Source of the DNA: a virus
IMG/VR virus record: IMGVR_UViG_3300029037_000169
Direction: 5' to 3' (one strand)
Length of the DNA: 64,000 nucleotides
In this document: positions 865 to 61,315 of the stretch, in pieces
Numbering within the stretch: position 1 is the first letter of the stretch
Layout of the letters: each line of letters opens with the position of its first letter
Notes under the pieces: generated by a model
Database searches by the model: none
What the model saw: the letters and a program-made list of their open reading frames with translations, nothing else
Told to the model about the DNA's origin: nothing
Made by a program: the position numbers and the translations under genes

Positions 865-879
865 GTGGAGATGGAGAGA
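865..879. repeat. left prophage junction (attL core), 15-bp direct repeat GTGGAGATGGAGAGA
   Basis: Exact 15-mer repeated at 60919..60933 where it forms the 3' end of ssrA (minus strand). Confidence 0.65.
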
Positions 880-1038
880 CCATAACTTATACTATCATAC
901 AGTATCAAACAATATCATATGCGCTCATGTTCAATACATTCGTGTGTTTTTAAACAGTCAACAAATATCATGTAATATCATATGATGTCATGTTTTTTGC
1001 GTGTAAATTCGCGTAGTTACACGCAACACGTTTTTATC

Positions 1039-2319
1039 ATGGAAATAAAGAGGAGCATAACATTCGAGATAGAGAAAAGAAGGAAGGAGGGGGAATTGAT
1101 TACCAAGAACGTCCCCATCAGGTGCGTGGTGACATTCAACCGGAACAGGATCACGCTCTCCACGGGGCACAGGATAGACGCTAATAAGTTCATCCCGGAG
1201 AAAGGTATCGTCAAGAACGGATGCTTCAACAAGGCCGGGGAAAGCTCGTCCGAGATAAATTCCGATCTTGACGATATACGTGCCACATTGCAAAATATAT
1301 TCCGCCAATACGAGAGAGAGGGCGAGATGCCTAGATCCAACGATATCAAGGAAAAGTTCAAGGTTGCGACAGGCCGGGCGAAGGAGGAAGAGAGGAAGCC
1401 GGTATCCCTGTTCGATATCTACAAGGAGTTTATCGATACGGTAGGGAGGCAGAACGCATGGACGAAGACATCGCACTACAAACATAACTCGATCATGCAC
1501 CTTCTGGAGGAGTTCAATCCACTGATCAAGTTCGATGACCTGTCGGAGGATACCTTGCAAGACTTCGTAGAGTTCTTAAGGGAATACAAAGGTATAAGGA
1601 ATACCACGTTGAACAAGTACCTGCACTTTATAAAGCAATTCCTTTTATGGGCCGACGACAAGGGATACAACACGAGAAAGGACTATCGAAGGTTCAGCCC
1701 AAGGCTTAAAGGGGCGAACTTCGATCTGAAGAAAGTCATATACTTGACATGGGAGGAACTGATGCGTATATATAATATGTATATAAAGGAAGGGACGTTA
1801 TCCACCGTCCGTGACGTTTTCTGCTTCTGCTGCTTCACCGGCCTCCGTTACTCCGACGTATATAACTTAAGGAAGACAGATATCATTAACGGGAAGATTG
1901 ACATCGTGACACAGAAGGACAGCGACAACATACAGATCGAGTTGAACAAGTACAGCAAATCAATACTTGATAAATACGAAGACATCAAGCTCAAGAACGG
2001 GAAGGCGCTGCCGGTCTTGTCCAATCAGAAATACAACATGCATCTAAAGGATCTCGGCAAGATGGCGGAGCTGGACTCCGAGATAACCGAGGTATGGTAC
2101 GAGGGCAACAAGCGAATACAGCAGACATTTCATAAATGGGAACGGCTTACTACCCATGTCGCCAGAAAGACATTCGTCGTCAACGCCCTTATGCTAGGCA
2201 TCCCCCCTCAAGTTATCATGAGATGGACAGGGCACAACGACCTCAAGGCCATGAAACCTTACACTCATATAGTGGATAAGCTGAAGGAGGACGAGATGAG
2301 CAAGTTCGATAAGATATAA
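1039..2319 (+). CDS. int: tyrosine-type site-specific integrase (ORF opens at 982; probable start 1039 MEIKRS)
   Basis: C-terminal catalytic signature HVARKTF...RWTGHNDLKAMKPYTHI (R..H..R..Y); position adjacent to attL. Confidence 0.85.
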   Translation: MEIKRSITFEIEKRRKEGELITKNVPIRCVVTFNRNRITLSTGHRIDANKFIPEKGIVKNGCFNKAGESSSEINSDLDDIRATLQNIFRQYEREGEMPRSNDIKEKFKVATGRAKEEERKPVSLFDIYKEFIDTVGRQNAWTKTSHYKHNSIMHLLEEFNPLIKFDDLSEDTLQDFVEFLREYKGIRNTTLNKYLHFIKQFLLWADDKGYNTRKDYRRFSPRLKGANFDLKKVIYLTWEELMRIYNMYIKEGTLSTVRDVFCFCCFTGLRYSDVYNLRKTDIINGKIDIVTQKDSDNIQIELNKYSKSILDKYEDIKLKNGKALPVLSNQKYNMHLKDLGKMAELDSEITEVWYEGNKRIQQTFHKWERLTTHVARKTFVVNALMLGIPPQVIMRWTGHNDLKAMKPYTHIVDKLKEDEMSKFDKI

Positions 2320-5817: not shown

Positions 5818-5891
5818 GGCCCTTTAGCTCAGCGGAACAGAGCGACGGTTTCCTAAACCGCAGGTCCCGGGTTTGAGTCCCGGAAGGGCCA
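5818..5891 (+). tRNA. tRNA-Arg (anticodon CCT), phage-encoded
   Basis: Cloverleaf: acceptor GGCCCTT/AAGGGCC, D arm GCTC..GAGC, anticodon loop TTCCTAA, T arm CCGGG-TTTGAGT-CCCGG. Confidence 0.75.
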
Positions 5892-6288
5892 CTAAAAAAG
5901 AGTTCTTTGACTTATTGAATAAAATCCTTACCCCCATAAGAGGATATACGTAAGAGATATAGGTATGGTGGTAAGGTTATGATAGTCGAAGATACCGGAA
6001 GGGATGATGATCCCCGCTCCCGATGTAGTTTGATCGGTTCCGATGTTGGAGTCTACATATTTAATAATGTATAACAGTACGATCCCATTCGGGTATCCTT
6101 GCGGTGGATGGAGAAGAAGACCGTATCGTACTAAATAATACGACTTTTCCTACGAGTCGTATCTAAGATATAGTAGGAGGTTAATACGGCCAAAAGTATG
6201 ACAGATTGGACAGACAATCATAAGATGACGACAGATCGGAAAGACGATCAAGCCGAGAACTCCGGCTTTGCATGAGTTGATTAAGACT

Positions 6289-8036: not shown

Positions 8037-8111
8037 GCTCCCTTAGCTCAGTTGGTCGAGAGCATCCGGCTCATAACCGGGAGGTCGCTGGTTCAAGCCC
8101 GGCAGGGAGCA
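8037..8111 (+). tRNA. tRNA-Met (anticodon CAT; could be tRNA-Ile2 if lysidinylated), phage-encoded
   Basis: Acceptor GCTCCCT/AGGGAGC, D arm GCTCAGTTGGTCGAGAGC, anticodon loop CTCATAA, T arm GCTGG-TTCAAGC-CCGGC. Confidence 0.75.
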
Positions 8112-8180
8112 CGTTTCACCCCTAGAGGGTGCTTATTCATCTATTTTTAAGTCACAAATAGTTTTAGACATTGCAACGCA

Positions 8181-9637: not shown

Positions 9638-10300
9638 ATGGACAAATCAGAAGAGATTGACAAATTAGCCATAGCGTTGGCCAAGTTCCAAGGGTCGCTA
9701 GAGCAACCAAGCCTCAATTCAGAGGTCAAGGTAAAGACTAAAACTGGACTAGAGTACAAGTTTAAGTACGCGGACCTATCCGAATGCAAAAGGGCGGCGA
9801 AACAACCATTAGCCGATAACGAGCTTGCTGTATGTCAGCTAATAGAGGATGATTACTCTATCCGGACCATACTGCTTCATTCCTCCGGCCAATGGATATC
9901 GTCCAAGGTAAGGATGCCATCCAATACGGCGGACGCTCAATCCATAGGATCGGCCATCACGTACGCCAAGAGATACGCCTTTTGCGCCATCCTTGGCATC
10001 GTGGCCGACGATGACGAGGACGCTAACATAGCGAACGGTAATACCGCCCAAAAGGAGCTGCCTAAAAAAACGGCAAGCTCAAACCAGAAGAAAGAGCTTA
10101 CGAGAGATCATATAAACAACGAGAGCGCCATGAAATCCATATCGGAGTGGATATACAAGAACGAGAAGAAGGCCAAGGAATCCAACCAGCCCTTCTCCGT
10201 GGAGAGCCTTATAAACAAGGCTTACATCGCCGGAAAGGTTGAGATGGAATCCATTATCGAGATATACAACAACTATAAAATAAACAACAACCTGTCATGA
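9638..10300 (+). CDS. erf: Erf-family single-strand annealing protein (recombinase)
   Basis: ITYAKRYAFCAILGIVADDDED matches P22 Erf core SSYARKYCLNGLFGIDD. Confidence 0.75.
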   Translation: MDKSEEIDKLAIALAKFQGSLEQPSLNSEVKVKTKTGLEYKFKYADLSECKRAAKQPLADNELAVCQLIEDDYSIRTILLHSSGQWISSKVRMPSNTADAQSIGSAITYAKRYAFCAILGIVADDDEDANIANGNTAQKELPKKTASSNQKKELTRDHINNESAMKSISEWIYKNEKKAKESNQPFSVESLINKAYIAGKVEMESIIEIYNNYKINNNLS

Positions 10301-13784: not shown

Positions 13785-13861
13785 GGTATCGTGGGTCTAA
13801 TGGTAAGACCACTCCGCCAAAAGACGGAGAGATGCAGATTCGAATCCTGCCGATACCACCA
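13785..13861 (+). tRNA. tRNA-like gene with encoded CCA and non-canonical 8-nt anticodon loop lacking U33
   Basis: Perfect 7-bp acceptor GGTATCG/CGATACC+A+CCA, D arm GGTC-TAATGGTAA-GACC, T loop TTCGAAT, but anticodon stem CTCCG/CGGAG encloses CCAAAAGA. Confidence 0.55.
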
Positions 13862-15732: not shown

Positions 15733-15936
15733 ATGAGTACATTTATGAAATTCATATCAGAATCTAAGCCTTGTGTAGCATTAGAGGTAAGCCCATTAAG
15801 CGAATCTGATGAGTGCATAAGTTTTTTCATATCTGAATATTCGGACTACATGACCAAAAGCGTAGAAATAAGTAAGGATGATATTAGAAGATTGATAAAG
15901 TTCCTAAAAGAGGAATTGGAAAATGCCGACAACTGA
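15733..15936 (+). CDS. hypothetical small acidic protein
   Basis: ORF only. Confidence 0.3.
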   Translation: MSTFMKFISESKPCVALEVSPLSESDECISFFISEYSDYMTKSVEISKDDIRRLIKFLKEELENADN

Positions 15937-16828
15937 TATGGATAAAGGATTTATCATGTTATCCCGTAAATTATTTTCTCACAGAATATGGAAAGCATCC
16001 CGGACTTTTAGCGAGTGCGAAGCGTGGATAGACTTAATACAGTCAGCACGATTTGAGGCAACGCAGCTTAAGGCTAGTATCGGAGGTAGAGAAATAACAT
16101 ACGGAAGAGGACAATATCCAGCATCCATAAGTTTTCTTTCCAAAAAATGGAAATGGGACTCAGAGAAAAAGGTCCGAAATTTCTTGGACATGCTTAAAAG
16201 GGACGGAATGATAACAACAGACGCATCCCAAGGCATGAATGTGATAACTCTATGCAATTATGATTTATACAACCCTATAAATATAGACAAGGGCGAGGAT
16301 AAGGGCAAGGGTAATGGCATAGACATAGAACAAGAAATCAAGGACTTAAAGCTTTCTTTGGGCGAGCTAAGGGCAAGCCTAGGGGCAAGTGACGAAAATA
16401 AAGGGCAAGGTAAGGGCAAGAATAATAATAAAGATAATAATAATATACCCCCTACCCCCAAATCGGGAGGTGCCGTCACTTCCGTTCCGGACACGGGCGA
16501 TAACCCTGAGACAGAAAAGGAGAAAACATGGAAAGATGATTTCAGCATCTATTTGGATTTAGTCCGTAGCGCATATAAGAGCATATGCGACGATCCAAAG
16601 ATCATGGAGACTCAACAATCCTATTATCCCGGCGTAAACATAAAACTATCCCTAGAGAAGGCTTGCACAAATTTCTGGGCAACAGACGCAGGATGGAAGC
16701 ACAAGAAAAAAAGCAGGGCCAAGGAGATTGACATGAGAATGACATTGATTAACGCAATAGATAAAAACAAGGTTTATTATGGCAAGAACGAACACCGCAC
16801 AGATCTCACATACATCGTCCCCGATTGA
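15923..16828 (+). CDS. putative replication initiation / helicase-loading protein
   Basis: Sits immediately upstream of and overlapping dnaB; low-complexity K/G/N linker. Confidence 0.4.
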   Translation: MPTTDMDKGFIMLSRKLFSHRIWKASRTFSECEAWIDLIQSARFEATQLKASIGGREITYGRGQYPASISFLSKKWKWDSEKKVRNFLDMLKRDGMITTDASQGMNVITLCNYDLYNPINIDKGEDKGKGNGIDIEQEIKDLKLSLGELRASLGASDENKGQGKGKNNNKDNNNIPPTPKSGGAVTSVPDTGDNPETEKEKTWKDDFSIYLDLVRSAYKSICDDPKIMETQQSYYPGVNIKLSLEKACTNFWATDAGWKHKKKSRAKEIDMRMTLINAIDKNKVYYGKNEHRTDLTYIVPD

Positions 16829-19187
16829 CGGCAGGCTGCCTCCCCAAGCCAAGGAGATCGAGCAGATAATACTCGGGGCTTGCCTCATAGAGAGCGACGC
16901 TTTCGAGAAAATCGCCTCGGAGCTATCGGAGGTCGATTTCTACGACAAGAGGAACCAATCGGTATTCAAGGCCATATCCGGGCTATACAAGGAGAGAAAG
17001 CCCATAGACATGATGACGGTCACGCAAGCGATGCTGTCATCCGGGGAGCTTGAGAGTATTGGGGGGCCGATATACATAGCTTCCCTTACCTCCAAGATCG
17101 GGTCTTCGGCCCATATACAGGATCATGCCATGATCGTCAAGGAGCGGTCCATACAGAGGAAGGGGCTGGCTATCGCCAACGACCTTGAGAACGCCATCTA
17201 TTCCAACGAGGATATAGGGGACGTTCTTCACAAGGCCATAAACGGCTCAGAGACCCTCATGGAGGAACTTATCGGCAAGTCTAATGGCGAGCATATATCC
17301 AAGGCCCTTAAAGGCTCCATGGACGGTTTATACAAGCGTGTGGAGATGGCGAGGAAAAACATCCGATCCGGTGTTGACACGGGTCTTCACGACCTGAACA
17401 AGATCACGAACGGATGGCAGCCGGGAAACTTGGTGATAATAGCGGCTAGGCCCTCCATGGGAAAGGCGCTAAGGATGGATGCCAAGGTCTTGACACCTTC
17501 CGGATGGAAACTGAACAAGGATCTGGCGATAGGCGACCAAGTTTGCTCCGTAGACGGGACGGAATCACGTGTGACCGGCATATTCCCGCAAGGGTATGTC
17601 AAGACATACATGGTCGAGTTCTCGGACGGTCGCAAGATCGAATGCTGCGGAAGTCACCTATGGAGCGTAATATCTTCCAAGTTCAATTCCAAGGCCGAAA
17701 GGGTAGTATCTACCTTGGAGCTTATGGACTTGATAAGCAAGGAAAGATATTCCGGCAGAATAAGCATTCCTCGTTTCTCCGGGATATTCGGGGACAGGAA
17801 AGATTTCGTGATCCCACCATATCTCATGGGAGTCTTGTTAGGGGATGGGATCTTGGGCAAAGGGGTTAGCTGGTGCAAGCCAGATAAGTTTATCGCAGAC
17901 AAGATCCGAGGTATGGTTGACTACGATGTTATCGCCTCAGATGATCGATACCTAATAACCAACACGGAGAACAGGAAGGCCAATAAGTACTTGGCAGAGT
18001 TGAAGAACCTAGGATTGCTCAACGCCCATTCTTACGAGAAGTTCATTCCGGACATGTACATTGACACATGTAGGGATCAAAGAGTAGAACTGTTGAACGG
18101 TCTTCTTGACACTGATGGGGATATAGACAAGAATGGGGCTATATGTTACAACACCACGAGTGTCAAATTGGCGAGAGGCGTACAAACGCTTTGCTGGTCT
18201 TTGGGATATAAATGTTCCTTGAGAGAAAGACGCTCATTCCTTTATGGCGAGCGGAAAAGGAACAGTTTCAGGCTCGTGATCGTAGCGGACAACCCTAGGG
18301 AATGCTTCACGCTCCCAAGGAAATTCGACAGGGTGAGGATGGACCGGAGAAACAAGCCTTTGACCGTGATGTCCGTGACACCGACCAACCGCAGGGTTGA
18401 ATGCCAGTGCATATCGGTATCGCATGAGAAGGCCTTGTACATAACGGATGATTACATAGTCACCCACAATACCGCCGTGATGCTTCACTTGGCCAAATCG
18501 GCGGCAAAATCCAACACGCCCGTGGCTATATTCTCGCTTGAAATGTCCGACATAAGCTTGGCCAACAGGTTGATCCTATCCGAGTGCGACGTAGATCCGG
18601 AAAGGTTCAAGTCCGGGTATATGACAAACGAGGAGATCAAAAAGGTAGAGACGGCAGTCAACGAGCTTTGGAGGCTCCCGATCTATGTCGATGACAACCC
18701 GTGCGTTACGATGGACTACATCCGCTCACGATGCAAGATACTGAAGAAGCAAGGCAAGTGCGGGATCATCATGGCCGACTATCTCCAATTGGCGGAGAGC
18801 GGGGAACGGGAAGGAAACCGTGAGCGGGAGGTAGCCAAGATGTCAAGGACCGCCAAGATCACGGCGAAGGAGTTAAAGGTTCCCTTCTTGCTCTTATCCC
18901 AATTGAACAGGGGAAACGAGGCCAGACCGGACAAGAAACCCCTCCTATCAGATCTTAGGGAATCCGGGGCTATCGAACAAGACGCTGATATCGTAATGTT
19001 CATCCATAGGCCGGAGTATTACAAGATCGAGGTAAAGGACAAGAACGGGAACGTCGAACGCAACTATGGGGAGTTGATCGTGGCCAAAAATAGAGATGGG
19101 GCTACTGGATTAGTAAAATTCAAGCATAATGACGGTATGACCAAGTTCTACGATTACGGGAGTTATGACAAGGACATGCCATTTTAA
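16779..19187 (+). CDS. dnaB: replicative DNA helicase DnaB containing a LAGLIDADG-type intein in the P-loop
   Basis: DnaB N-domain; Walker A split ARPSMGK|[ALRMDAKVLTP...YIVTHN]|TAVMLHLA; LLGDGILGKG and LLDTDGDIDKNG endonuclease motifs; RecA-like C-terminal domain. Confidence 0.85.
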   Translation: MARTNTAQISHTSSPIDGRLPPQAKEIEQIILGACLIESDAFEKIASELSEVDFYDKRNQSVFKAISGLYKERKPIDMMTVTQAMLSSGELESIGGPIYIASLTSKIGSSAHIQDHAMIVKERSIQRKGLAIANDLENAIYSNEDIGDVLHKAINGSETLMEELIGKSNGEHISKALKGSMDGLYKRVEMARKNIRSGVDTGLHDLNKITNGWQPGNLVIIAARPSMGKALRMDAKVLTPSGWKLNKDLAIGDQVCSVDGTESRVTGIFPQGYVKTYMVEFSDGRKIECCGSHLWSVISSKFNSKAERVVSTLELMDLISKERYSGRISIPRFSGIFGDRKDFVIPPYLMGVLLGDGILGKGVSWCKPDKFIADKIRGMVDYDVIASDDRYLITNTENRKANKYLAELKNLGLLNAHSYEKFIPDMYIDTCRDQRVELLNGLLDTDGDIDKNGAICYNTTSVKLARGVQTLCWSLGYKCSLRERRSFLYGERKRNSFRLVIVADNPRECFTLPRKFDRVRMDRRNKPLTVMSVTPTNRRVECQCISVSHEKALYITDDYIVTHNTAVMLHLAKSAAKSNTPVAIFSLEMSDISLANRLILSECDVDPERFKSGYMTNEEIKKVETAVNELWRLPIYVDDNPCVTMDYIRSRCKILKKQGKCGIIMADYLQLAESGEREGNREREVAKMSRTAKITAKELKVPFLLLSQLNRGNEARPDKKPLLSDLRESGAIEQDADIVMFIHRPEYYKIEVKDKNGNVERNYGELIVAKNRDGATGLVKFKHNDGMTKFYDYGSYDKDMPF

Positions 19188-30634: not shown

Positions 30635-31027
30635 TTATAAAACCACTATGCTCTCCTCCTCTCTCGCCGCCTCCCACTCGGCGAAATCGCTATCCACACG
30701 GTCTTTCAACGCCTTCCTCTCGTTAAGGAACGTCTTATAAGACTCCACGTATGACAAGTCCAATATGCCTAGCTGGGCGGCGTTGTAGTCGTTCAGCTTC
30801 TTTTGCTCCACGTCCTTGTCCCATAGGGCGTTGATACAGGCCTCCAATATCTTGTTGGCAGTTAACGTGGCCCATATCCTGACCTCGTTGTAACTATAGG
30901 AGATCACGGGGGCCATATCGTCACCCATCTCCCTTGTCTCCTCTCTAACGTCCCACCGGTACAGGTAGGAACCGTCACCGTCCCGCTCTATTTTAGGCGG
31001 CATTGTGTCGCTCCATGATCGCTTCAT
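30635..31027 (-). CDS. hypothetical protein downstream of RT
   Basis: ORF overlapping RT start. Confidence 0.4.
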   Translation of the reverse strand: MKRSWSDTMPPKIERDGDGSYLYRWDVREETREMGDDMAPVISYSYNEVRIWATLTANKILEACINALWDKDVEQKKLNDYNAAQLGILDLSYVESYKTFLNERKALKDRVDSDFAEWEAAREEESIVVL

Positions 31028-32054
31028 AAAACTCTGGTTTTAAAATTTTCTTAGCTAAATGCTTGCTATCGCTATCATATATCCAGCCCAGCCAACCGGC
31101 TAGACCTGCCTTGTATTCCGTTAAGGATATATTCGGGACTTTATTCAATCTAGCCGCCGCACGACATAGATTTTGCTTAGTCCTCTTCCTTATCCGTATA
31201 TGCTCCTTATAGAAAACGAACCCCACGAAATCTATACCACGGCCGCTTTTATCCGATCTTCTCTCAGCGATCTTAAATATCTGGTAATTCCCTTTCAGCT
31301 CCAACTTCAACACGGTCAACCTATCGATAAGCCACGGAAGCAATACGTTTCTCAAGAAACACTTATCATGATGGAAAAAAGTCATGTCATCCGCATATCT
31401 GATATAATGCTTTATATCTATAATCTCCTTTATCTCGTGATCCAGATAGGCGAGATAAAGATTCGCAAGATATTGGCTAAGATAATTCCCGATCGGAACG
31501 CCGGGAGCGGAATCGATGATCTCATCCAACAACATAAGCAAGCGATCGTCCTTGATCTTCTTCCGAGCTATGCCTTTCAACACTTCATGGTCTATTGACG
31601 GATAGAATTTGCGGATATCAACCTTGAGGCAATAGGCGGATTCACGATCGGACAAAGCCCGTCTTGTCCTTTTATACGCCTCCGTTATCCCTCTTCCCTT
31701 GATACATGATGTCGTGTCAGAAGTGAATATGGAAACCCATATAGGTTCCATGACGTTCATTATAGCATGATGCAATATCCTGTCCGGGTAATAAGGAAGC
31801 TTGAATATGACCCTTTCTTTAGGCTCATAGATGATATCAGTCCGGTACTTGGAAGTCTTGAACGTGCCATCCTGCAAAGACTTTAGCAAACGGCTGAGAT
31901 TACCTTCTTTGTCCTTGTCAAACAACCTTATGCCGTAGGAATCCTTCTTCCCCCTCCGAGCCTTGATGTCTGCCAGTATCAAGTTATCCATATTCGCTAT
32001 CTTATCAAATAAATTTCCTATTCTCTTCATTGTCATCAATTTGCTTTTTATCAT
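30993..32054 (-). CDS. diversity-generating retroelement (DGR) reverse transcriptase
   Basis: YADD catalytic box (IRYADDMTFF); DGR-specific IGNYLSQ in place of QGxxxSP; ~350 aa; adjacent TR. Confidence 0.85.
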   Translation of the reverse strand: MIKSKLMTMKRIGNLFDKIANMDNLILADIKARRGKKDSYGIRLFDKDKEGNLSRLLKSLQDGTFKTSKYRTDIIYEPKERVIFKLPYYPDRILHHAIMNVMEPIWVSIFTSDTTSCIKGRGITEAYKRTRRALSDRESAYCLKVDIRKFYPSIDHEVLKGIARKKIKDDRLLMLLDEIIDSAPGVPIGNYLSQYLANLYLAYLDHEIKEIIDIKHYIRYADDMTFFHHDKCFLRNVLLPWLIDRLTVLKLELKGNYQIFKIAERRSDKSGRGIDFVGFVFYKEHIRIRKRTKQNLCRAAARLNKVPNISLTEYKAGLAGWLGWIYDSDSKHLAKKILKPEFYEAIMERHNAA

Positions 32055-32161
32055 AGGGAGTCTTCGGTTCCCCTACCAACACCCTTTATATGGGGAGACT
32101 TTTTTCGCCAAGAGGCGAGGCCACCATCCCTGTTTGTTCCCTAAATATCTTTCCCCTTTCT

Positions 32162-32278
32162 TAAAAGTATAGGCGTGAACCGATGTTACGATTCGCATCG
32201 GAAGGCGCATTATTCGTATTCACGTTAGCGAGGCCTGCATTCGACCTGTTGTCCGCGTTACCGCCAACCAGCACCACC
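32162..32278 (-). repeat. DGR template repeat (TR)
   Basis: 117-bp homology to VR 32727..32843; every mismatch (~18) is at a TR plus-strand T, i.e. an A on the coding minus strand. Confidence 0.85.
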
Positions 32279-32302
32279 TAGGGATGATCGACCCTTATTC
32301 CG

Positions 32303-32644
32303 TTATTCGAGATAATACCTGTTCCCGGAGGCTCGCATCGTCACTTTCCTCGGGAACTTGTCCATCTCCTTTATCTTTCCAAGCACGTACTTGATCTCTT
32401 GGGAATTCGTAAAGAATTTCTTGGCATCACTGTCCTTGTCCTCGATATTGTTCTTGATCATAACGAGTGCCCGGTCCTTCCCAAACTTGGTGGACACGCC
32501 GTCCATGTAATCAATGACCCAGAACGTGAGGTTCGTCAACTTCTGTTGGGTGATCTCCGGACAATTAAAATGCCTTGAGTTCTTATCCCTTGGGATGTTC
32601 AAGAATGACAAGCTGCCATCGTCTTTATTCTTATTTTCTTCCAT
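32303..32644 (-). CDS. DGR accessory variability determinant (Avd) candidate
   Basis: 113-aa ORF positioned between target gene and TR, the canonical avd slot. Confidence 0.45.
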   Translation of the reverse strand: MEENKNKDDGSLSFLNIPRDKNSRHFNCPEITQQKLTNLTFWVIDYMDGVSTKFGKDRALVMIKNNIEDKDSDAKKFFTNSQEIKYVLGKIKEMDKFPRKVTMRASGNRYYLE

Positions 32645-32697
32645 TTCATATTGTTATTTAATTGTTATACAAAATATTTCCGACGTGATACGTGCGG

Positions 32698-35600
32698 CTA
32701 CGCCGACGTTTTACGAAATTCGGGGAAAAAGCAAAGGCGCGAACCGAAGTGACGAAACGCAGCGGAAGGCGCATTATTCGTACCCACGTGAGCGAGGCCC
32801 GCAGCCGACCCGTCGTCCGCGCCACCGCCAACCAGCACCACCTGTAAGCGGTTGGCTTGCGTATAGGTGTAGTAATAGTCGCACCAGTAGGTAGAGCTAC
32901 TACCGCCGACCTCCGTAGCCACGATATCCCCATCTTCCCCAAGTAACATCTTCTTGGCATAACCATTGGTACGGCAGATGTTACCTTTCTTGTCATAACC
33001 TGTGTAAGATGTATCGCTGAAGTTTGACGGGTCATCGGTAGTCCATAGGATAGACAATCCGGAATCACCCGTGGTGACTTGTATGTTGGCCCCATCGGTG
33101 TATTTCCAGATATGGCCGAACGGGTTCTCTATGCCACGGTACCTGTTAGCCATCAACGTGGCGTGAGTACCACCGGAGGCGTTCTTCACGACATACGCCT
33201 TCTCTCCCGAGCCGTTCCCGAACTCGTTGGTATAGCCGCATGGGATAAGAGGATTGGCGTTGTTGAAGTTCGTCCAATCCGTCATTTGCGTCGGTCCCGG
33301 ACCTAGGCCGCCTTGGGCGAAACCGTTAGCGTCCTTCTGGGCGTTGAAAGGTTTCTGGCTGTCCAGCGTGGCGTACTCGACGGCGAATAACCAGAACAGG
33401 ATCTTGTGGGCGTTATAGGTGTACATTTCCCAGCCGCTGCCACGTTTCCTAGCGGCTTGCCGGAATTGGTCTCGGGTGAGGTTGGTGACGGGGCGGCCGA
33501 GTAGGGAACGGTAGGTATCATCCCATTCAGCGGTGTTGTCACCACCTCTAAAATTAGTTGAATTAGGATCACTTAATTTACTAGCTCCAGCCGCCGAACA
33601 TAATAAATTATCGGTTCTATACATTCTGGCTTCATATGTTGAGATATAGAACTTATCTACATGTTTATACCCAGGTAATGGAATTTCGGACAACATCTTC
33701 CTAAATTTAGTGCCATTAAAATACAATTTATACCAATGTTCAGGTATCTCTGTCATAACGGCATAATCCAAATAGCTTCCACCCCATGAAAGCTCATTAT
33801 CCAAATATTCTTTAACTCCACCATCTCTATCCAAAAGACACCTTCTCATCTTACTCTGCACCGGCAACTCCCGATGTAGTTGCATATTACCCACACGCTT
33901 CCCGTCCGGGCTTGACGATGCCATGTCCCACTCTACACCGTAGGCGTACCGCTCCTCTATATCCGGGATGTCCTCCCAAGCGGGGGTCCACTCGGTGGAG
34001 ATGTCACCATATTCAAGTTTAATCTTATGGATGGTGGAAGTTGATGTGCCAGTTTTAGGAGAACTAAATACAACCATATGTGTATTATCAGCTACTGCAT
34101 CTCCGATATTAGTAATCCATTTAAAAGTCTTACTGGCCTTCCCATTCACAAAGTCAGCCTTACTGAACTGAGCCATAGAACCTACTGCACCAGTAGAGTT
34201 ATATATAGTGAACATTTCCTTATCATCACCCAATTCTCCAAAAATAGTCAATGTTACTTGTGTTCCTTTAGATATCGGTTCAGTTAGCCAATAATCAGCG
34301 ATATTGTAATTCGAGTTACTCACCTCCTTCCCTGATCCCAGCAACAGGTTCCTGCCGTACACGGGCAGCTTGCGGTACTTGCCATCAGCCATCAGAGACT
34401 TATCCTTGTCCCCCTTGGTCTCCAGCGTTATCGACACGTCCGGATCTTCGTTTTGGGCCTTGTCCGGCGTTATGGTTATCTGGCCGTTAGACGGGGTGGA
34501 TGTGACAACGGGCTTTAACTTATTAACGTCCGTCCTTAGACCGGTGACCAGATTCCGGATATCCGTATCGTCGTAATTATCCAATCCATCCAACTTACCC
34601 TTATCTTCGTCAGTATAATTATTGTCCGTATGGACGTAATTAGCGTCCTTTACGATGTGATCGTCATTTGTTAATTGGGATGTCTTGGTTGGGATCAAAG
34701 CCGTTATCTCCGCACGCAAGTCATTGAGAAGACCGGTTAGGGTTTCCTTATCAGTAATACCCTGCAAAAAAAGCTCGATCTCATGGAAGGTATCTATAGC
34801 GTCGCTCGCTCCATCACCCAATAACGTGTCGATATCCGCCTTGATAGAGGCGATCTCACTCCTGACCCATTCATCATCATAGTTGGATAAGCCGTTGATC
34901 TTAGATAACAGCTCATCCGTAAGGTCGTTTGTGCTAAGTCCCTTCCCTTTGATCTTCTCGACAAACCTATCGTCAATCTGTCCGGACGTGTAATAACCTG
35001 ACAAGATACTCGTGACCTCCGCAAGTATTTGTTTTTTCAAATCCAGCAACACTCCGGCCATATCCTTATCCTCTGTCATACCGGACAAGAACTCCACCAC
35101 CTCCTGCCATCTGTTGATGATATTGTCCGCGTCCGGATCTCCCGTTATAAACGTGGACAGATCGGAAGCAACTTTCCTTATGGCCGTGTCAAGATCCCCC
35201 TCTACCTCCTTCGCCCTGCTGATCTCGGAGGTTAAAGCCTCTCTTAACGCCGTGTCATCGTAATTACTCAATCCGTCGAGCTTTTTCAAAAGAGCGTCCG
35301 TCAAGTTGTTATCCGTATGCGTGTAATCGGCATCGGTTACGATATTATCCGGGAGAATGGGTATCCCTAACTCCTCTAGGGACTTATCCCCGACCAACTC
35401 AACCCCGTTGATCCGTGGTTTATTGGTCATACTTTCATAATCTCCGGTCCCTACGGCAGGAACGGAGATATCTCCCGTTAGCCTTACCGTTGTCACCTTG
35501 ACGCTGCCACATCCCGTATCTCCACCTACGGAGCACGACCGTGGGATAAGACGGAACGCATCGCAAGCGTCTACGGTGTACATGCCCTCCTTCCCTTTGT

Positions 35601-35823
35601 TCTCGATAAGAGTCAGCGTATAGACACCGTTATAATCTTGGTCTTTGCCTAGGTAGGTGAATCGTATCACGTTATCCCGGAAGTGGAGGTCTTTTACCTC
35701 CATCTTCCTGTAACCATTGGTCATGAAGACGCTAATGTTCTTGCCATCCAAAGACTCGGGCTTACCGTCCCGGAAGATGGTCCATTCTATATTGATGTCG
35801 TTTCCTATGCGAATAGCTTCCAT
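32698..35823 (-). CDS. DGR target: tail fibre / receptor-binding protein with C-terminal variable region
   Basis: 1041 aa, fibre-like, VR at C-terminus, sits in tail-fibre cluster. Confidence 0.75.
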   Translation of the reverse strand: MEAIRIGNDINIEWTIFRDGKPESLDGKNISVFMTNGYRKMEVKDLHFRDNVIRFTYLGKDQDYNGVYTLTLIENKGKEGMYTVDACDAFRLIPRSCSVGGDTGCGSVKVTTVRLTGDISVPAVGTGDYESMTNKPRINGVELVGDKSLEELGIPILPDNIVTDADYTHTDNNLTDALLKKLDGLSNYDDTALREALTSEISRAKEVEGDLDTAIRKVASDLSTFITGDPDADNIINRWQEVVEFLSGMTEDKDMAGVLLDLKKQILAEVTSILSGYYTSGQIDDRFVEKIKGKGLSTNDLTDELLSKINGLSNYDDEWVRSEIASIKADIDTLLGDGASDAIDTFHEIELFLQGITDKETLTGLLNDLRAEITALIPTKTSQLTNDDHIVKDANYVHTDNNYTDEDKGKLDGLDNYDDTDIRNLVTGLRTDVNKLKPVVTSTPSNGQITITPDKAQNEDPDVSITLETKGDKDKSLMADGKYRKLPVYGRNLLLGSGKEVSNSNYNIADYWLTEPISKGTQVTLTIFGELGDDKEMFTIYNSTGAVGSMAQFSKADFVNGKASKTFKWITNIGDAVADNTHMVVFSSPKTGTSTSTIHKIKLEYGDISTEWTPAWEDIPDIEERYAYGVEWDMASSSPDGKRVGNMQLHRELPVQSKMRRCLLDRDGGVKEYLDNELSWGGSYLDYAVMTEIPEHWYKLYFNGTKFRKMLSEIPLPGYKHVDKFYISTYEARMYRTDNLLCSAAGASKLSDPNSTNFRGGDNTAEWDDTYRSLLGRPVTNLTRDQFRQAARKRGSGWEMYTYNAHKILFWLFAVEYATLDSQKPFNAQKDANGFAQGGLGPGPTQMTDWTNFNNANPLIPCGYTNEFGNGSGEKAYVVKNASGGTHATLMANRYRGIENPFGHIWKYTDGANIQVTTGDSGLSILWTTDDPSNFSDTSYTGYDKKGNICRTNGYAKKMLLGEDGDIVATEVGGSSSTYWCDYYYTYTQANRLQVVLVGGGADDGSAAGLAHVGTNNAPSAAFRHFGSRLCFFPEFRKTSA
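32727..32843 (-). repeat. DGR variable repeat (VR) at 3' end of target gene
   Basis: See TR; lies within last ~48 codons of 32698..35823. Confidence 0.85.
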
Positions 35824-60676: not shown

Positions 60677-60918
60677 ATTTTCGTAACTTTAAGTTACGCA
60701 CCTGTCCCGCAAATATAATGAATAATATACATGACGGCTACACTGTATCCATAAAATATGTTATTGATCATAATTGGGAGTTGAGAAGGAAAAACGTTAT
60801 ATTTGTCACGATGGAGAATTAAGACATCAAAAATCCTATAAAAAAACGCCTTTTACGTGTATTTTTACGTGTAACAACAAAAATAGCCTTGACAATCAGT
60901 AAATTACCAAGGCTATTG

Positions 60919-60933
60919 TGGAGATGGAGAGAT
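60919..60933. repeat. right prophage junction (att core) = 3' terminal 15 nt of ssrA
   Basis: Identical to 865..879. Confidence 0.65.
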
Positions 60934-61315
60934 TCGAACTCTCGTCCAAACGAGGAATTAATTTGCTTTCTACATGTTTATCTTCGCCTTCATTGTCGGG
61001 GAAGAGCAAGACCGAAGCCACCCACTCATCCCTTATCCTCTAAAGTTTCGCCTGAGACCCGAGGCTTATCTCAAACTATCTCCGATATTGCTGCACCACC
61101 TGATCGGAACGCTTCGGAGCCACAGCATCCGGGTGATGTCACGTCCCCGCAACTTTTGCAGGGATTAAGCTTGAATCTACTATACTTCGATTAAGCAGCG
61201 AGAGCGTAATTATTTTCGCCAGTTAATTGTTCGTTGTCTGAGATTTAAGTGCAAGCCAACCACGCACTACATGCTTACAAACCACTTCTACCCGCTGTCA
61301 AAACCGGTCATCCCC
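60919..61315 (-). ncRNA. ssrA: tmRNA (ssrA) with tag peptide GENNYALAA
   Basis: 5' GGGGATGACCGGTTTTGACAGCGGG; tag ORF GGCGAAAATAATTACGCTCTCGCTGCTTAA (61191..61220, minus); 3' tRNA-like GAGAGTTCGAATCTCTCCATCTCCA. Confidence 0.85.

What the first reader, a model, noticed from the sequence alone, without database searches (positions are those of the whole stretch)
16779..19187. DnaB helicase interrupted in its Walker A motif by a LAGLIDADG-type intein that begins with Ala
The extein sequence is ARPSMGK|...|TAVMLHLAKSA, which reconstitutes GxxxxGKT. The insert begins ALRMDAKVLTPSGW, ends YIVTHN followed by Thr, and carries two LAGLIDADG-like motifs, LLGDGILGKG and LLDTDGDIDKNG. An Ala at intein position 1 implies a non-canonical class 2/3 splicing mechanism, and the intein includes a homing endonuclease.
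Basis: partly seen in the sequence, partly recalled or inferred. Interest (0 to 1): 0.55.

Follow-up and report, generated by a model that had tools for sequence, protein, structure and literature searches.

The report
Class 3 intein splitting prophage DnaB
A prophage replicative helicase gene (DnaB) is interrupted exactly inside its ATP-binding loop by a 335-residue self-splicing, mobile protein element (a class 3 intein with a LAGLIDADG homing endonuclease); this is a real but ordinary member of a very large, already characterised family.

Summary
ORF 16779..19187 (+) encodes an 802-aa DnaB. A 335-aa insert (nt 17466..18470) sits between Lys and Thr of the Walker A motif (AARPSMGK|T).

An intein-free allele of the same gene (P0002, 95% extein identity) reads ...ARPSMGKTAVMLHLAKSA.... 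At the DNA level it differs by one clean 1005-nt gap, so the boundaries are fixed and no Cys/Ser alternative exists.

The insert carries the full class 3 signature:
- Ala1, block B His64 and Trp66 (B:12);
- block F Cys315 (F:4) and block G Thr333 (G:5);
- C-terminal His-Asn followed by Thr+1.

Trp, Cys and His are invariant in 116 same-site DnaB inteins and in 140 representatives of about 17,000 related clusters. Class 2 fails because it needs Cys+1.

The AlphaFold model (pLDDT 94) matches PI-SceI (TM 0.79) and the class 3 mycobacterial DnaB inteins. Both LAGLIDADG acidic residues are present. dN/dS is about 0.1. The intein is more conserved than its exteins in 112 of 115 homologues, which indicates mobility.

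Verdict: a new member of a known kind (the DnaB P-loop "site b" class 3 intein, here full-length, in a Bacteroides-type prophage). Interest is low. The only unusual detail is a conserved Cys-Cys dyad in block B.

The parts
16779..19187 (+). dnaB precursor ORF (802 aa plus stop): N-extein, intein, C-extein
   Evidence: DnaB N domain, split DnaB_C, TIGR00665 412.8 bits (cut-off 385.25)
16779..17465 (+). N-extein (aa 1-229). It ends with the first part of Walker A, AARPSMGK (17442..17465)
   Evidence: The intein-free allele P0002/L003 is colinear
17466..18470 (+). Intein, 335 aa, Ala1 ... Asn335. It is a HINT splicing domain interrupted by a LAGLIDADG endonuclease domain
   Evidence: A clean 1005-nt gap against the intein-free allele. 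PDB sequence hits to gp41-1 and Msm DnaBi1 inteins. AF2 model pLDDT 94.4. Foldseek match to PI-SceI, TM 0.79
17466..17507 (+). Block A (ALRMDAKVLTPSGW), with non-nucleophilic Ala1
   Evidence: Ala in 113 of 116 same-site homologues. Aligns to ALALDTPLPTPSGW of Msm DnaBi1, 6bs8
17628..17669 (+). Block B (GRKIECCGSHLWSV): His64 (B:10), Trp66 (B:12, the W of WCT), and the Cys60-Cys61 dyad (B:6, B:7)
   Evidence: His and Trp are invariant in 116/116 and 140/140. C60 is present in 104/116 and C61 in 111/116
17781..18359 (+). LAGLIDADG homing-endonuclease domain (approximate limits). Motif 1 is at 17823..17849 (Asp127) and motif 2 at 18090..18119 (Asp217)
   Evidence: Pfam LAGLIDADG_3 33 bits (cut-off 22.5). 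Asp127 in 112/116 plus 3 Glu, Asp217 in 115/116. Fold match to PI-SceI, TliVMA and PI-PfuI. dN/dS 0.11
18399..18446 (+). Block F (ECQCISVSHEKALYIT). Cys315 (codon 18408..18410) is F:4, the predicted initiating nucleophile (the C of WCT)
   Evidence: Cys315 is invariant in 116/116 and 139/139 aligned sequences. It aligns to Cys118 of Msm DnaBi1
18450..18473 (+). Block G (DYIVTHN|T): Thr333 (G:5, the T of WCT), His334, Asn335, then Thr+1, which is also the Walker A Thr
   Evidence: In the BLAST-based set, T/H/N are found in 139/139 and +1 is Thr in 117 and Ser in 22
18471..19187 (+). C-extein (aa 565-802) plus stop: the remainder of the DnaB RecA-like ATPase domain
   Evidence: The spliced sequence scores 426.6 bits on TIGR00665 as one continuous stretch
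15923..16828 (+). Upstream gene for a DnaD-like helicase loader. It overlaps the dnaB start by 50 nt and forms a replication module with dnaB
   Evidence: PHROG 2514/186 'DnaD-like helicase loader', E 1.4e-18

Best explanation
The window carries a prophage of the Bacteroides temperate-phage type. Its replicative helicase gene dnaB is invaded by a full-length class 3 intein at the classic P-loop site, between the Lys and Thr of Walker A (DnaB 'site b').

The 802-aa precursor cannot bind or hydrolyse ATP because the P-loop is split, so the helicase is made active by protein splicing. The inferred mechanism follows the characterised class 3 inteins:
1. The internal block F Cys315 attacks the Lys229-Ala1 peptide bond, assisted by block B His64 and Trp66. 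This gives a thioester 'block F' branched intermediate.
2. [quoted passage not shown]
3. Asn335 cyclises and releases the intein.
4. An O-to-N shift restores AARPSMGK-TAVM, a 467-aa DnaB.

The excised intein carries a two-motif LAGLIDADG endonuclease. That enzyme is predicted to cut intein-free dnaB alleles at the same site (around ...CCATGGGAAAA|ACGGCCGTGATG...) and so copy the intein into them (homing).

Shown here: the anatomy, the exact boundaries, all signature residues and their conservation, the fold, purifying selection, presence/absence polymorphism, and intein/extein discordance. Inferred: the chemistry, and that both activities are currently functional.
For: **Boundaries.** The intein-free allele P0002 is 95% identical in the extein and reads ARPSMGK-TAVMLHLAKSA. 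Its DNA (L003) differs by a single 1005-nt gap at 17466..18470.

**Class 3 signature.** The definition in PMC2807308 is a non-nucleophilic residue 1, Trp B:12, Cys F:4, Thr G:5 and Ser/Thr+1. Here these are Ala1, Trp66, Cys315, Thr333 and Thr+1.
- In 116 same-site DnaB inteins, Ala1 occurs in 113 and His64, Trp66 and Cys315 in all 116.
- In 140 representatives from an exhaustive search, H/W are found in 140/140 and C/T/H/N in 139/139. The +1 residue is Thr in 117 and Ser in 22. The insertion context is almost always GK|A.

**Homology to experimentally characterised inteins.** phmmer E is 3e-7 to Msm DnaBi1 (6bs8). In that alignment Ala1, His65, Trp67, Cys118 and Thr137 align to Ala1, His64, Trp66, Cys315 and Thr333. 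Msm DnaBi1 is a P-loop, Ala1, class 3 intein shown to splice (PMC6195587).

**Fold.** The AF2 model has pLDDT 94.4 and pTM 0.92. Foldseek gives PI-SceI E 6e-16 with TM 0.79, plus TliVMA and PI-PfuI. The splicing domain matches 6bs8, 6rix and 6riy at about 32% identity.

**Endonuclease.** LAGLIDADG_3 scores above the Pfam cut-off, and the acidic residues Asp127 and Asp217 are conserved.

**Selection.** Against the 92%-identical intein+ allele L004, dN/dS is 0.10 for the intein, 0.11 for the HEN domain and 0.07 for the N-terminal splicing domain.

**Mobility.**
- The closest exteins after the near-identical alleles P0001 and P0002 (P0021, P0023, P0024, 63-64% identity) have no intein.
- The closest inteins (P0008, P0003, P0004, 68-71%) sit in DnaBs only 38-44% identical.
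- The intein is more conserved than the extein in 112 of 115 homologues.
- The intein+ cluster has 780 members and the intein-free cluster 306.

**Host protein.** The spliced sequence matches TIGR00665 DnaB end to end at 426.6 bits, above the 385.25 cut-off. The gene sits after a DnaD-like loader in a phage replication module.
Against: - No experiment was done. Splicing, the block F branched intermediate and endonuclease cleavage are all inferred from sequence signatures and homology.
- Grafting WCT onto a class 1 intein was not sufficient for splicing (PMC7664689), so the triplet alone does not prove competence.
- Block B position 7 is Cys, whereas the studied class 3 inteins have Asp (Msm DnaBi1) or Ser (MP-Be). 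The catalytic environment is therefore not identical.
- dN/dS rests on a single pairwise comparison.
- Model coordinates could not be read, so the Cys315-to-junction distance was not measured.
Confidence: 0.9

Rival explanations
1. The splicing domain works, but the homing endonuclease is dead or dying. On this reading the intein is now inherited only vertically with the prophage, as a late stage of the homing cycle.
For: - Many DnaB site-b inteins have lost the endonuclease altogether (Msm DnaBi1, Mle DnaB; PMC6195587).
- Only the second LAGLIDADG half reaches the Pfam threshold.
Against: - Both catalytic Asp residues are present and conserved.
- The HEN dN/dS is 0.11 at dS 0.43.
- The whole domain folds confidently onto PI-SceI.
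- Presence/absence polymorphism in near-identical dnaB alleles, and intein/extein discordance, argue for recent movement.
Confidence: 0.15
2. Class 2-like mechanism: with Ala1, the +1 residue attacks the N-terminal junction directly, without a block F branched intermediate.
For: Ala1 is shared with the KlbA class 2 inteins.
Against: - Class 2 inteins use Cys+1 and have Asp at F:4 with no WCT. Here +1 is Thr (115 of 116) and F:4 is an invariant Cys, with Trp B:12 and Thr G:5.
- A Thr hydroxyl attacking an amide directly is chemically unfavourable.
- In MP-Be the F:4 Cys is absolutely required (PMC2807308).
Confidence: 0.03
3. Canonical class 1 intein with misplaced boundaries, where a Cys or Ser is the true first residue.
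For: None beyond the general rule that most inteins start with Cys or Ser.
Against: - The intein-free allele fixes both junctions to the residue.
- Shifting either boundary by one residue would not regenerate GK-TAVM.
- 113 of 116 homologues also start with Ala.
Confidence: 0.01
4. Non-splicing remnant: a decayed intein or permanent insertion that leaves this dnaB a pseudogene. The precedent is the Arthrobacter Arth_1007 'DnaB' intein.
For: A precedent for a dead class 3-like intein exists (PMC3196547, listed).
Against: - All catalytic residues are intact here, whereas the Arthrobacter case has WDT and 66-aa exteins.
- The exteins form a full-length DnaB above the equivalog cut-off and are under strong purifying selection (dN/dS 0.02-0.16).
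- The intein+ allele cluster has 780 member sequences.
Confidence: 0.02

Closest known systems
Mycobacterium smegmatis DnaBi1 (PDB 6BS8/6OWN), with M. leprae DnaB and M. chimaera MchDnaB-1 (6RIX/6RIY): class 3 inteins at DnaB site b
   Same: - Same host protein and same insertion point, the P-loop GK|S/T.
- Ala1 with a similar block A (ALALDTPLPTPSGW vs ALRMDAKVLTPSGW).
- His/Trp in block B, Cys at F:4, and a T-H-N C-terminus.
- phmmer E 3e-7. Foldseek gives about 32% identity over the splicing domain.
   Different: - The mycobacterial inteins are mini-inteins of 139-145 aa with no endonuclease. This one is 335 aa with an intact LAGLIDADG domain.
- Ser+1 there, Thr+1 here.
- Block B:7 is Asp62 there, and Cys61 (preceded by Cys60) here.
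- Chromosomal essential dnaB there, prophage dnaB here.
Mycobacteriophage Bethlehem 'DnaB' intein (MP-Be DnaB), the class 3 prototype (PMC2807308)
   Same: - Phage-borne and full length (341 aa), with an endonuclease domain.
- WCT triplet and Thr+1.
- Ile after the F:4 Cys, and an aromatic residue 10 positions after it (Ile316 and Tyr325 here).
   Different: - It starts with Pro1 after Gln-1, not Ala1 after the P-loop Lys.
- B:7 is Ser there.
- The sequences are only distantly related. They were not aligned directly here.
DnaB P-loop inteins annotated only as 'replicative DNA helicase' in Burkholderia, other Betaproteobacteria, and Bacteroidia/Parabacteroides (P0010, P0041 and others)
   Same: - Same site, Ala1, CCxxHLW block B, QCISV block F and THN|T.
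- LAGLIDADG domain, 330-350 aa.
- Identity is 37-71%.
   Different: - Different exteins (36-52% identity).
- Most are chromosomal dnaB genes of Proteobacteria. The window copy sits in a prophage replication module.
gp41-1 intein (PDB 6QAZ; the engineered WCT variant is 6RIZ)
   Same: - Best PDB sequence matches: 1e-7 for the WCT-engineered variant and 3.5e-6 for the native protein.
- Phage-type helicase host.
- T-H-N C-terminus.
   Different: - Class 1 (Cys1; native Phe at B:12 and Asp at F:4).
- Naturally split.
- No endonuclease.
PI-SceI (yeast VMA1 intein) and other bifunctional intein endonucleases (TliVMA, PI-PfuI)
   Same: Overall two-domain architecture, HINT plus LAGLIDADG. Foldseek TM is 0.79 with E about 1e-16.
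   Different: - Class 1 (Cys1).
- About 14% identity.
- Larger (454 aa), with an extra DNA-recognition region.
- Different host protein.

Membership tests
Intein (HINT-domain protein-splicing element) | In-frame insertion in a conserved host protein that is absent from otherwise colinear orthologues or alleles | tested here: met
   P0002/L003 lack exactly aa 230-564, a 1005-nt gap at 17466..18470
Intein (HINT-domain protein-splicing element) | HINT fold with splicing blocks A, B, F and G, and a C-terminal His-Asn followed by Ser/Thr/Cys | tested here: met
   PDB sequence hits to inteins. AF2 model pLDDT 94 matching intein structures. The intein ends ...VTHN|T
Intein (HINT-domain protein-splicing element) | Demonstrated excision with extein ligation | not testable with these tools
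   Needs expression plus western blot or mass spectrometry
Class 3 intein (Tori et al. 2010, PMC2807308) | Non-nucleophilic first residue | tested here: met
   Ala1, with boundaries fixed by the intein-free allele. Ala in 113 of 116 homologues
Class 3 intein (Tori et al. 2010, PMC2807308) | WCT triplet: Trp at block B:12, Cys at block F:4, Thr at block G:5 | tested here: met
   Trp66, Cys315 and Thr333. They align to Trp67, Cys118 and Thr137 of 6bs8. Invariant
Class 3 intein (Tori et al. 2010, PMC2807308) | [quoted passage not shown] | tested here: met
   Thr+1. The family has Thr in 115 and Ser in 1, and Thr in 117 and Ser in 22
Class 3 intein (Tori et al. 2010, PMC2807308) | Thiol-labile block F branched intermediate, and an absolute requirement for the F:4 Cys | not testable with these tools
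   Biochemical: needs C315A and N335A mutants plus DTT sensitivity
Class 2 intein (KlbA type) | Cys+1 that attacks the N-terminal junction directly; Asp at F:4; no WCT | tested here: not met
   +1 is Thr, F:4 is Cys, and WCT is present
Class 1 (standard) intein | Cys, Ser or Thr at intein position 1 | tested here: not met
   Ala1
LAGLIDADG homing endonuclease (two-motif, intein-encoded) | Two LAGLIDADG motifs, each ending in a catalytic acidic residue, within an alpha-beta-beta-alpha-beta-beta-alpha pseudo-dimer fold | tested here: met
   LMGVLLGD127G and LLNGLLDTD217G. Pfam PF14528 scores 33 bits against a 22.5 cut-off. Fold match to PI-SceI and I-DmoI
LAGLIDADG homing endonuclease (two-motif, intein-encoded) | Site-specific cleavage of the intein-free allele | not testable with these tools
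   Indirect support only: presence/absence polymorphism and intein/extein discordance
DnaB replicative helicase (NCBIfam TIGR00665 equivalog) | Score above the curated cut-off over the full model; N-terminal domain plus RecA-like domain with Walker A | tested here: met
   412.8 bits as precursor and 426.6 bits spliced, against a 385.25 cut-off. Model positions 1-433 of 435 are covered
phage_DnaB (NCBIfam TIGR03600) | Score above the curated cut-off of 498.65 | tested here: not met
   347.5 bits. It is a DnaB encoded by a prophage, but not a member of that particular subfamily model
DnaB intein insertion site b (P-loop) | Insertion between the invariant Lys and the Ser/Thr of Walker A, so that the +1 nucleophile is the Mg-coordinating P-loop residue | tested here: met
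   AARPSMGK|intein|T. The site is described in PMC6195587. 'SVGK' is the N-extein of MchDnaB-1

The most novel reading that the evidence does not exclude
The conserved Cys60-Cys61 dyad in block B (positions B:6 and B:7, motif CCxxHLW) may be functional. It replaces the Asp or Ser of the studied class 3 inteins and, by homology to Asp62 of Msm DnaBi1, lies next to both the scissile bond and the catalytic Cys315.

Two roles are possible:
- A built-in redox or metal switch, through a reversible disulfide or thiolate cluster with Cys315.
- A relay nucleophile.

Either would make maturation of the phage helicase, and hence prophage replication in an anaerobic Bacteroides host, conditional on the redox state of the cell. 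This would be a phage counterpart of the Cys48-Cys118 toggle described for M. smegmatis DnaBi1, but built from conserved block residues.
Probability: 0.12. Interest if true: 0.5.

Novelty: new member of a known kind. Interest (0 to 1): 0.2.

Why it matters
Mostly as correct annotation. The 802-aa product should be annotated as a DnaB precursor with a class 3 intein, not as an aberrant helicase. The mature helicase is 467 aa.

It is a clean natural example of a full-length class 3 intein that still has its endonuclease at the DnaB P-loop site. In mycobacteria only endonuclease-less relics remain at that site. Intein-plus and intein-minus alleles of the same prophage gene are both available, which is ideal material for a homing assay. 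It also supports the proposed phage reservoir of class 3 inteins.

Such inteins are of practical interest as splicing tools with an internal nucleophile. The conserved Cys-Cys dyad would be worth a redox or zinc test.

None of this changes current understanding.

Tried and rejected
- **DNA search.** blastn (distant mode) of the whole gene against the phage collection found nothing. Only protein-level searches were informative. The related phage BF1-TP2 shares 24% of the 10-30 kb stretch but has no dnaB at this position.
- **Prototype intein.** I tried to fetch the prototype MP-Be DnaB intein from the Bethlehem record (30-52 kb). The annotated DnaB-like gene gp62 has no intein, and gp52 carries a different, Cys/Ser-type insertion. 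No direct alignment to the prototype was therefore made, and the comparison rests on the paper's residue numbering.
- **Literature not held.** Tori & Perler 2011 (PMC3133030) is not held, and neither are the supplements of Tori 2010. I could not check whether Burkholderia or Bacteroidia DnaB inteins are in the original class 3 list.
- **Model geometry.** Model coordinates are not exposed to scripts, so no Cys315-to-junction or Cys61-to-Cys315 distances were measured.
- **Second copy.** A search of the window for a second intein or HEN copy (phmmer and a family HMM against six-frame translations) found only the dnaB one.
- **Rejected readings.** Class 1 with shifted boundaries, class 2, a pseudogene remnant and a non-intein insertion were all considered and rejected (see rival explanations).


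Full report
**1. Observation**

The ORF list shows one uninterrupted reading frame at 16779..19187 on the + strand, 802 aa.
- Pfam finds the DnaB N-terminal domain (aa 21-122) and a DnaB_C domain split into two stretches (E 1.8e-84). A LAGLIDADG_3 match lies in between (aa 434-502).
- NCBIfam TIGR00665 (replicative DNA helicase DnaB, equivalog) scores 412.8 bits against a cut-off of 385.25, even with the insert.
The insert is aa 230-564, nt 17466..18470, 335 aa.
- One small correction: the Walker A motif here starts with Ala (AARPSMGKT), which fits the [AG]xxxxGK[ST] consensus.

**2. The boundaries are fixed by a natural intein-free allele**

A search of 5.8 billion proteins returned two clusters close to the window protein. 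One is a 96%-identical intein-containing cluster (P0001, 803 aa, 780 member sequences). The other is a 468-aa cluster (P0002, 306 members) whose extein is 95% identical to the window's. P0002 reads ...AARPSMGKTAVMLHLAKSA..., exactly the predicted splice product.

At the DNA level, the contig encoding P0002 (L003) aligns to the window gene with a single clean gap of 1005 nt, at window 17466..18470. Flanking identity is 89-92%. Moving either junction by one residue would not regenerate GK-TAVM.

Both intein-plus alleles (the window and L004) carry silent changes in the two codons that flank the insertion, AAA>AAG and ACG>ACC, relative to the intein-free allele.

**3. What kind of intein**

[quoted passage not shown] Class 2 (KlbA) inteins use Cys+1 and lack the triplet (PMC2807308).

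The window intein has Ala1 and all the class 3 signature residues:
- Block B is GRKIECCGSHLWSV, with His64 at B:10 and Trp66 at B:12.
- Block F is ECQCISVSHEKALYIT, with Cys315 at F:4.
- Block G is DYIVTHN, with Thr333 at G:5, followed by Thr+1.

HMMER aligns these residues to Ala1, His65, Trp67, Cys118 and Thr137 of the M. smegmatis DnaBi1 intein (6bs8, E 3e-7). That intein is an Ala1 class 3 intein in the DnaB P-loop ('site b') whose splicing and structure were studied experimentally (PMC6195587).

Conservation in relatives:
- In 116 homologous DnaB proteins with an insert at the same GK|T site, Ala1 occurs in 113 and His64, Trp66 and Cys315 in all 116. The +1 residue is Thr in 115 and Ser in 1. 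The THN terminus was used to delimit those inteins, so its invariance there is by construction.
- An independent BLAST-based read-out used 140 representatives from an exhaustive HMMER scan. It gave H/W in 140/140 and C/T/H/N in 139/139. The +1 residue was Thr in 117 and Ser in 22. Ala was first in 94 of the 95 sequences aligned to position 1. The insertion context was almost always GK|A, in several kinds of P-loop NTPases.

The class 3 membership test is therefore met on every sequence criterion. Class 1 and class 2 fail on defining features.

**4. Fold and endonuclease**

An AlphaFold2 model built from a 20-sequence alignment is confident (mean pLDDT 94.4, pTM 0.92). It shows beta-strand N- and C-terminal parts around a helical/beta middle domain.

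Foldseek against the PDB gives these matches:
- PI-SceI (E about 1e-16, TM up to 0.79), TliVMA, PhoVMA and PI-PfuI over the whole length.
- The class 3 DnaB inteins 6bs8, 6rix and 6riy (about 32% identity) for the splicing domain.
- I-DmoI for the endonuclease part.

Both LAGLIDADG motifs keep the catalytic acidic residue: Asp127 (Asp in 112 of 116, Glu in 3) and Asp217 (115 of 116). Pfam LAGLIDADG_3 passes its threshold.

**5. Is it alive and mobile?**

A Nei-Gojobori comparison with the intein-plus allele L004 gives dN/dS of 0.10 for the intein, 0.11 for the endonuclease region and 0.07 for the N-terminal splicing region. The exteins are at 0.02-0.16. This is one pairwise comparison, but it argues against decay.

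Intein and extein histories are discordant:
- After the near-identical alleles, the most similar exteins (P0021, P0023, P0024, 63-64%) have no intein.
- The most similar inteins (68-71%: P0008, P0003, P0004) sit in DnaBs only 38-44% identical.
- The intein is more conserved than the extein in 112 of 115 homologues.

The three alleles are also mosaic. The N-extein of L004 is close to the window (dS 0.07), while its C-extein is 97.9% identical to the intein-free L003. This is compatible with recombination around the insertion site. Together with the presence/absence polymorphism, this is what an active or recently active homing element looks like. Cleavage itself is not shown.

**6. Mechanism**

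The mechanism is inferred from the family. The precursor's P-loop is split, so ATPase and helicase activity require splicing.
1. Cys315 attacks the Lys229-Ala1 amide, giving a block F thioester branch.
2. The N-extein is transferred to Thr+1.
3. Asn335 cyclises.
4. An O-N shift restores the Walker A motif.

The spliced 467-aa sequence matches TIGR00665 end to end (426.6 bits). The Thr that serves as the splicing nucleophile is the P-loop Thr of the mature enzyme.

**7. Context**

The gene follows a DnaD-like helicase loader (15923..16828) and an Erf recombinase (9638..10300), and precedes an Ant anti-repressor. The window as a whole is a prophage:
- An integrase lies at 982..2319.
- Tail, head, portal and terminase genes lie on the minus strand at 32.7-59.7 kb.
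- A tmRNA gene lies at 60918..61315.
- A 15-nt direct repeat lies at 865..879 and 60918..60932, the latter at the tmRNA 3' end.

Bacteroides phage BF1-TP2 shares 91% identity over a quarter of the 10-30 kb stretch but has no dnaB there. No second intein is present in the window.

**8. Comparison with what is known, and novelty**

DnaB P-loop class 3 inteins with Ala1 are well described (Msm DnaBi1, Mle DnaB, MchDnaB-1). P-loop GK|T is called the 'classic' intein site (PMC5050341). The prototype class 3 intein is a full-length phage intein with Thr+1.

The family is huge: 17,358 representative clusters at E<=1e-3 and 3,913 at E<=1e-30. The window intein differs from the studied mycobacterial ones in three ways. 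It retains the endonuclease, it has Thr+1, and it has a Cys-Cys dyad at block B:6-7 where they have Asp or Ser. None of this takes it outside the known kind.

I rate it a new member of a known kind, with low interest. The one feature I could not explain is the conserved dyad (C60 in 104 of 116, C61 in 111 of 116). By homology to Asp62 of Msm DnaBi1, which lies next to Ala1 and the catalytic Cys, a redox or metal switch is conceivable but untested.

Noticed in passing
window 30993..35823 (- strand); repeats 32163..32279 and 32727..32843: This looks like a diversity-generating retroelement. A reverse transcriptase gene lies at 30993..32054 (phrog_1423, E 6e-103). A 117-nt template repeat lies at 32163..32279. 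An 85%-identical variable repeat lies at 32727..32843, at the 3' end of the tail-protein gene 32698..35823. In the repeat core the mismatches are A in the template against G/C/T in the variable copy, read on the minus strand.
   Followed up: partly
window 865..879 and 60918..60932; integrase 982..2319; tmRNA 60918..61315 (-): The window is an integrated prophage of about 60 kb. A 15-nt exact direct repeat (GTGGAGATGGAGAGA) lies just upstream of the integrase gene and again exactly at the 3' end of the tmRNA gene (tag GENNYALAA). This is as expected for att sites of a phage integrated into ssrA.
   Followed up: partly
window 13785..13861 (+); also 5818..5892 and 8037..8112: ARAGORN calls a tRNA-like gene with a four-base anticodon 'aaaa' inside the prophage. 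It also calls tRNA-Arg(CCT) and tRNA-Met. The four-base call could be a frameshift-suppressor-like tRNA, a degenerate tRNA or a false positive.
   Followed up: no
window 17643..17648 (intein Cys60-Cys61, block B:6-7): A conserved Cys-Cys dyad lies immediately before the block B His (CCxxHLW). It is present in 104 and 111 of 116 same-site DnaB inteins, and in 97 and 79 of 140 wider representatives. Studied class 3 inteins have Asp or Ser at B:7. Its function is unknown, and it could be a redox or metal switch.
   Followed up: partly
window 17463..17465 and 18471..18473; L003 and L004: Both intein-containing alleles (the window and L004) carry silent substitutions in the two codons that flank the insertion, Lys AAA>AAG and Thr ACG>ACC, relative to the intein-free allele. 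The alleles are also mosaic. The L004 N-extein is close to the window (dS 0.07), while its C-extein is 97.9% identical to the intein-free L003. Both observations are compatible with co-conversion or recombination around a homing site.
   Followed up: partly
protein P0005 (925 aa, metagenome contig): A related DnaB (53% extein identity) carries at the same site a 448-aa intein that starts with Ser (SLLMDAKILTPTGW). It also has an extra PF07463 (NUMOD4) hit in addition to LAGLIDADG_3. This is a WCT-type intein with an N-terminal nucleophile and an enlarged endonuclease region.
   Followed up: no
window 16779..16828: The dnaB start overlaps the end of the upstream DnaD-like loader gene by 50 nt in another frame. 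The first ~19 codons differ strongly from those of P0001 and P0002 (56-58% nt identity in the first 60 columns). The true start codon was not verified.
   Followed up: no
phage collection hits H2, H3, H14, H30 and others: Related inteins (35-41% identity over the full 335 aa) occur in 858 phage records. They include 300 mycobacteriophages and many jumbo phages, in genes annotated as helicase, terminase large subunit, 'DarB-like antirestriction' or hypothetical protein. One is Bacteroides phage BS-TP3 'terminase large subunit'. Many of these host genes appear to be annotated without mention of the intein.
   Followed up: no
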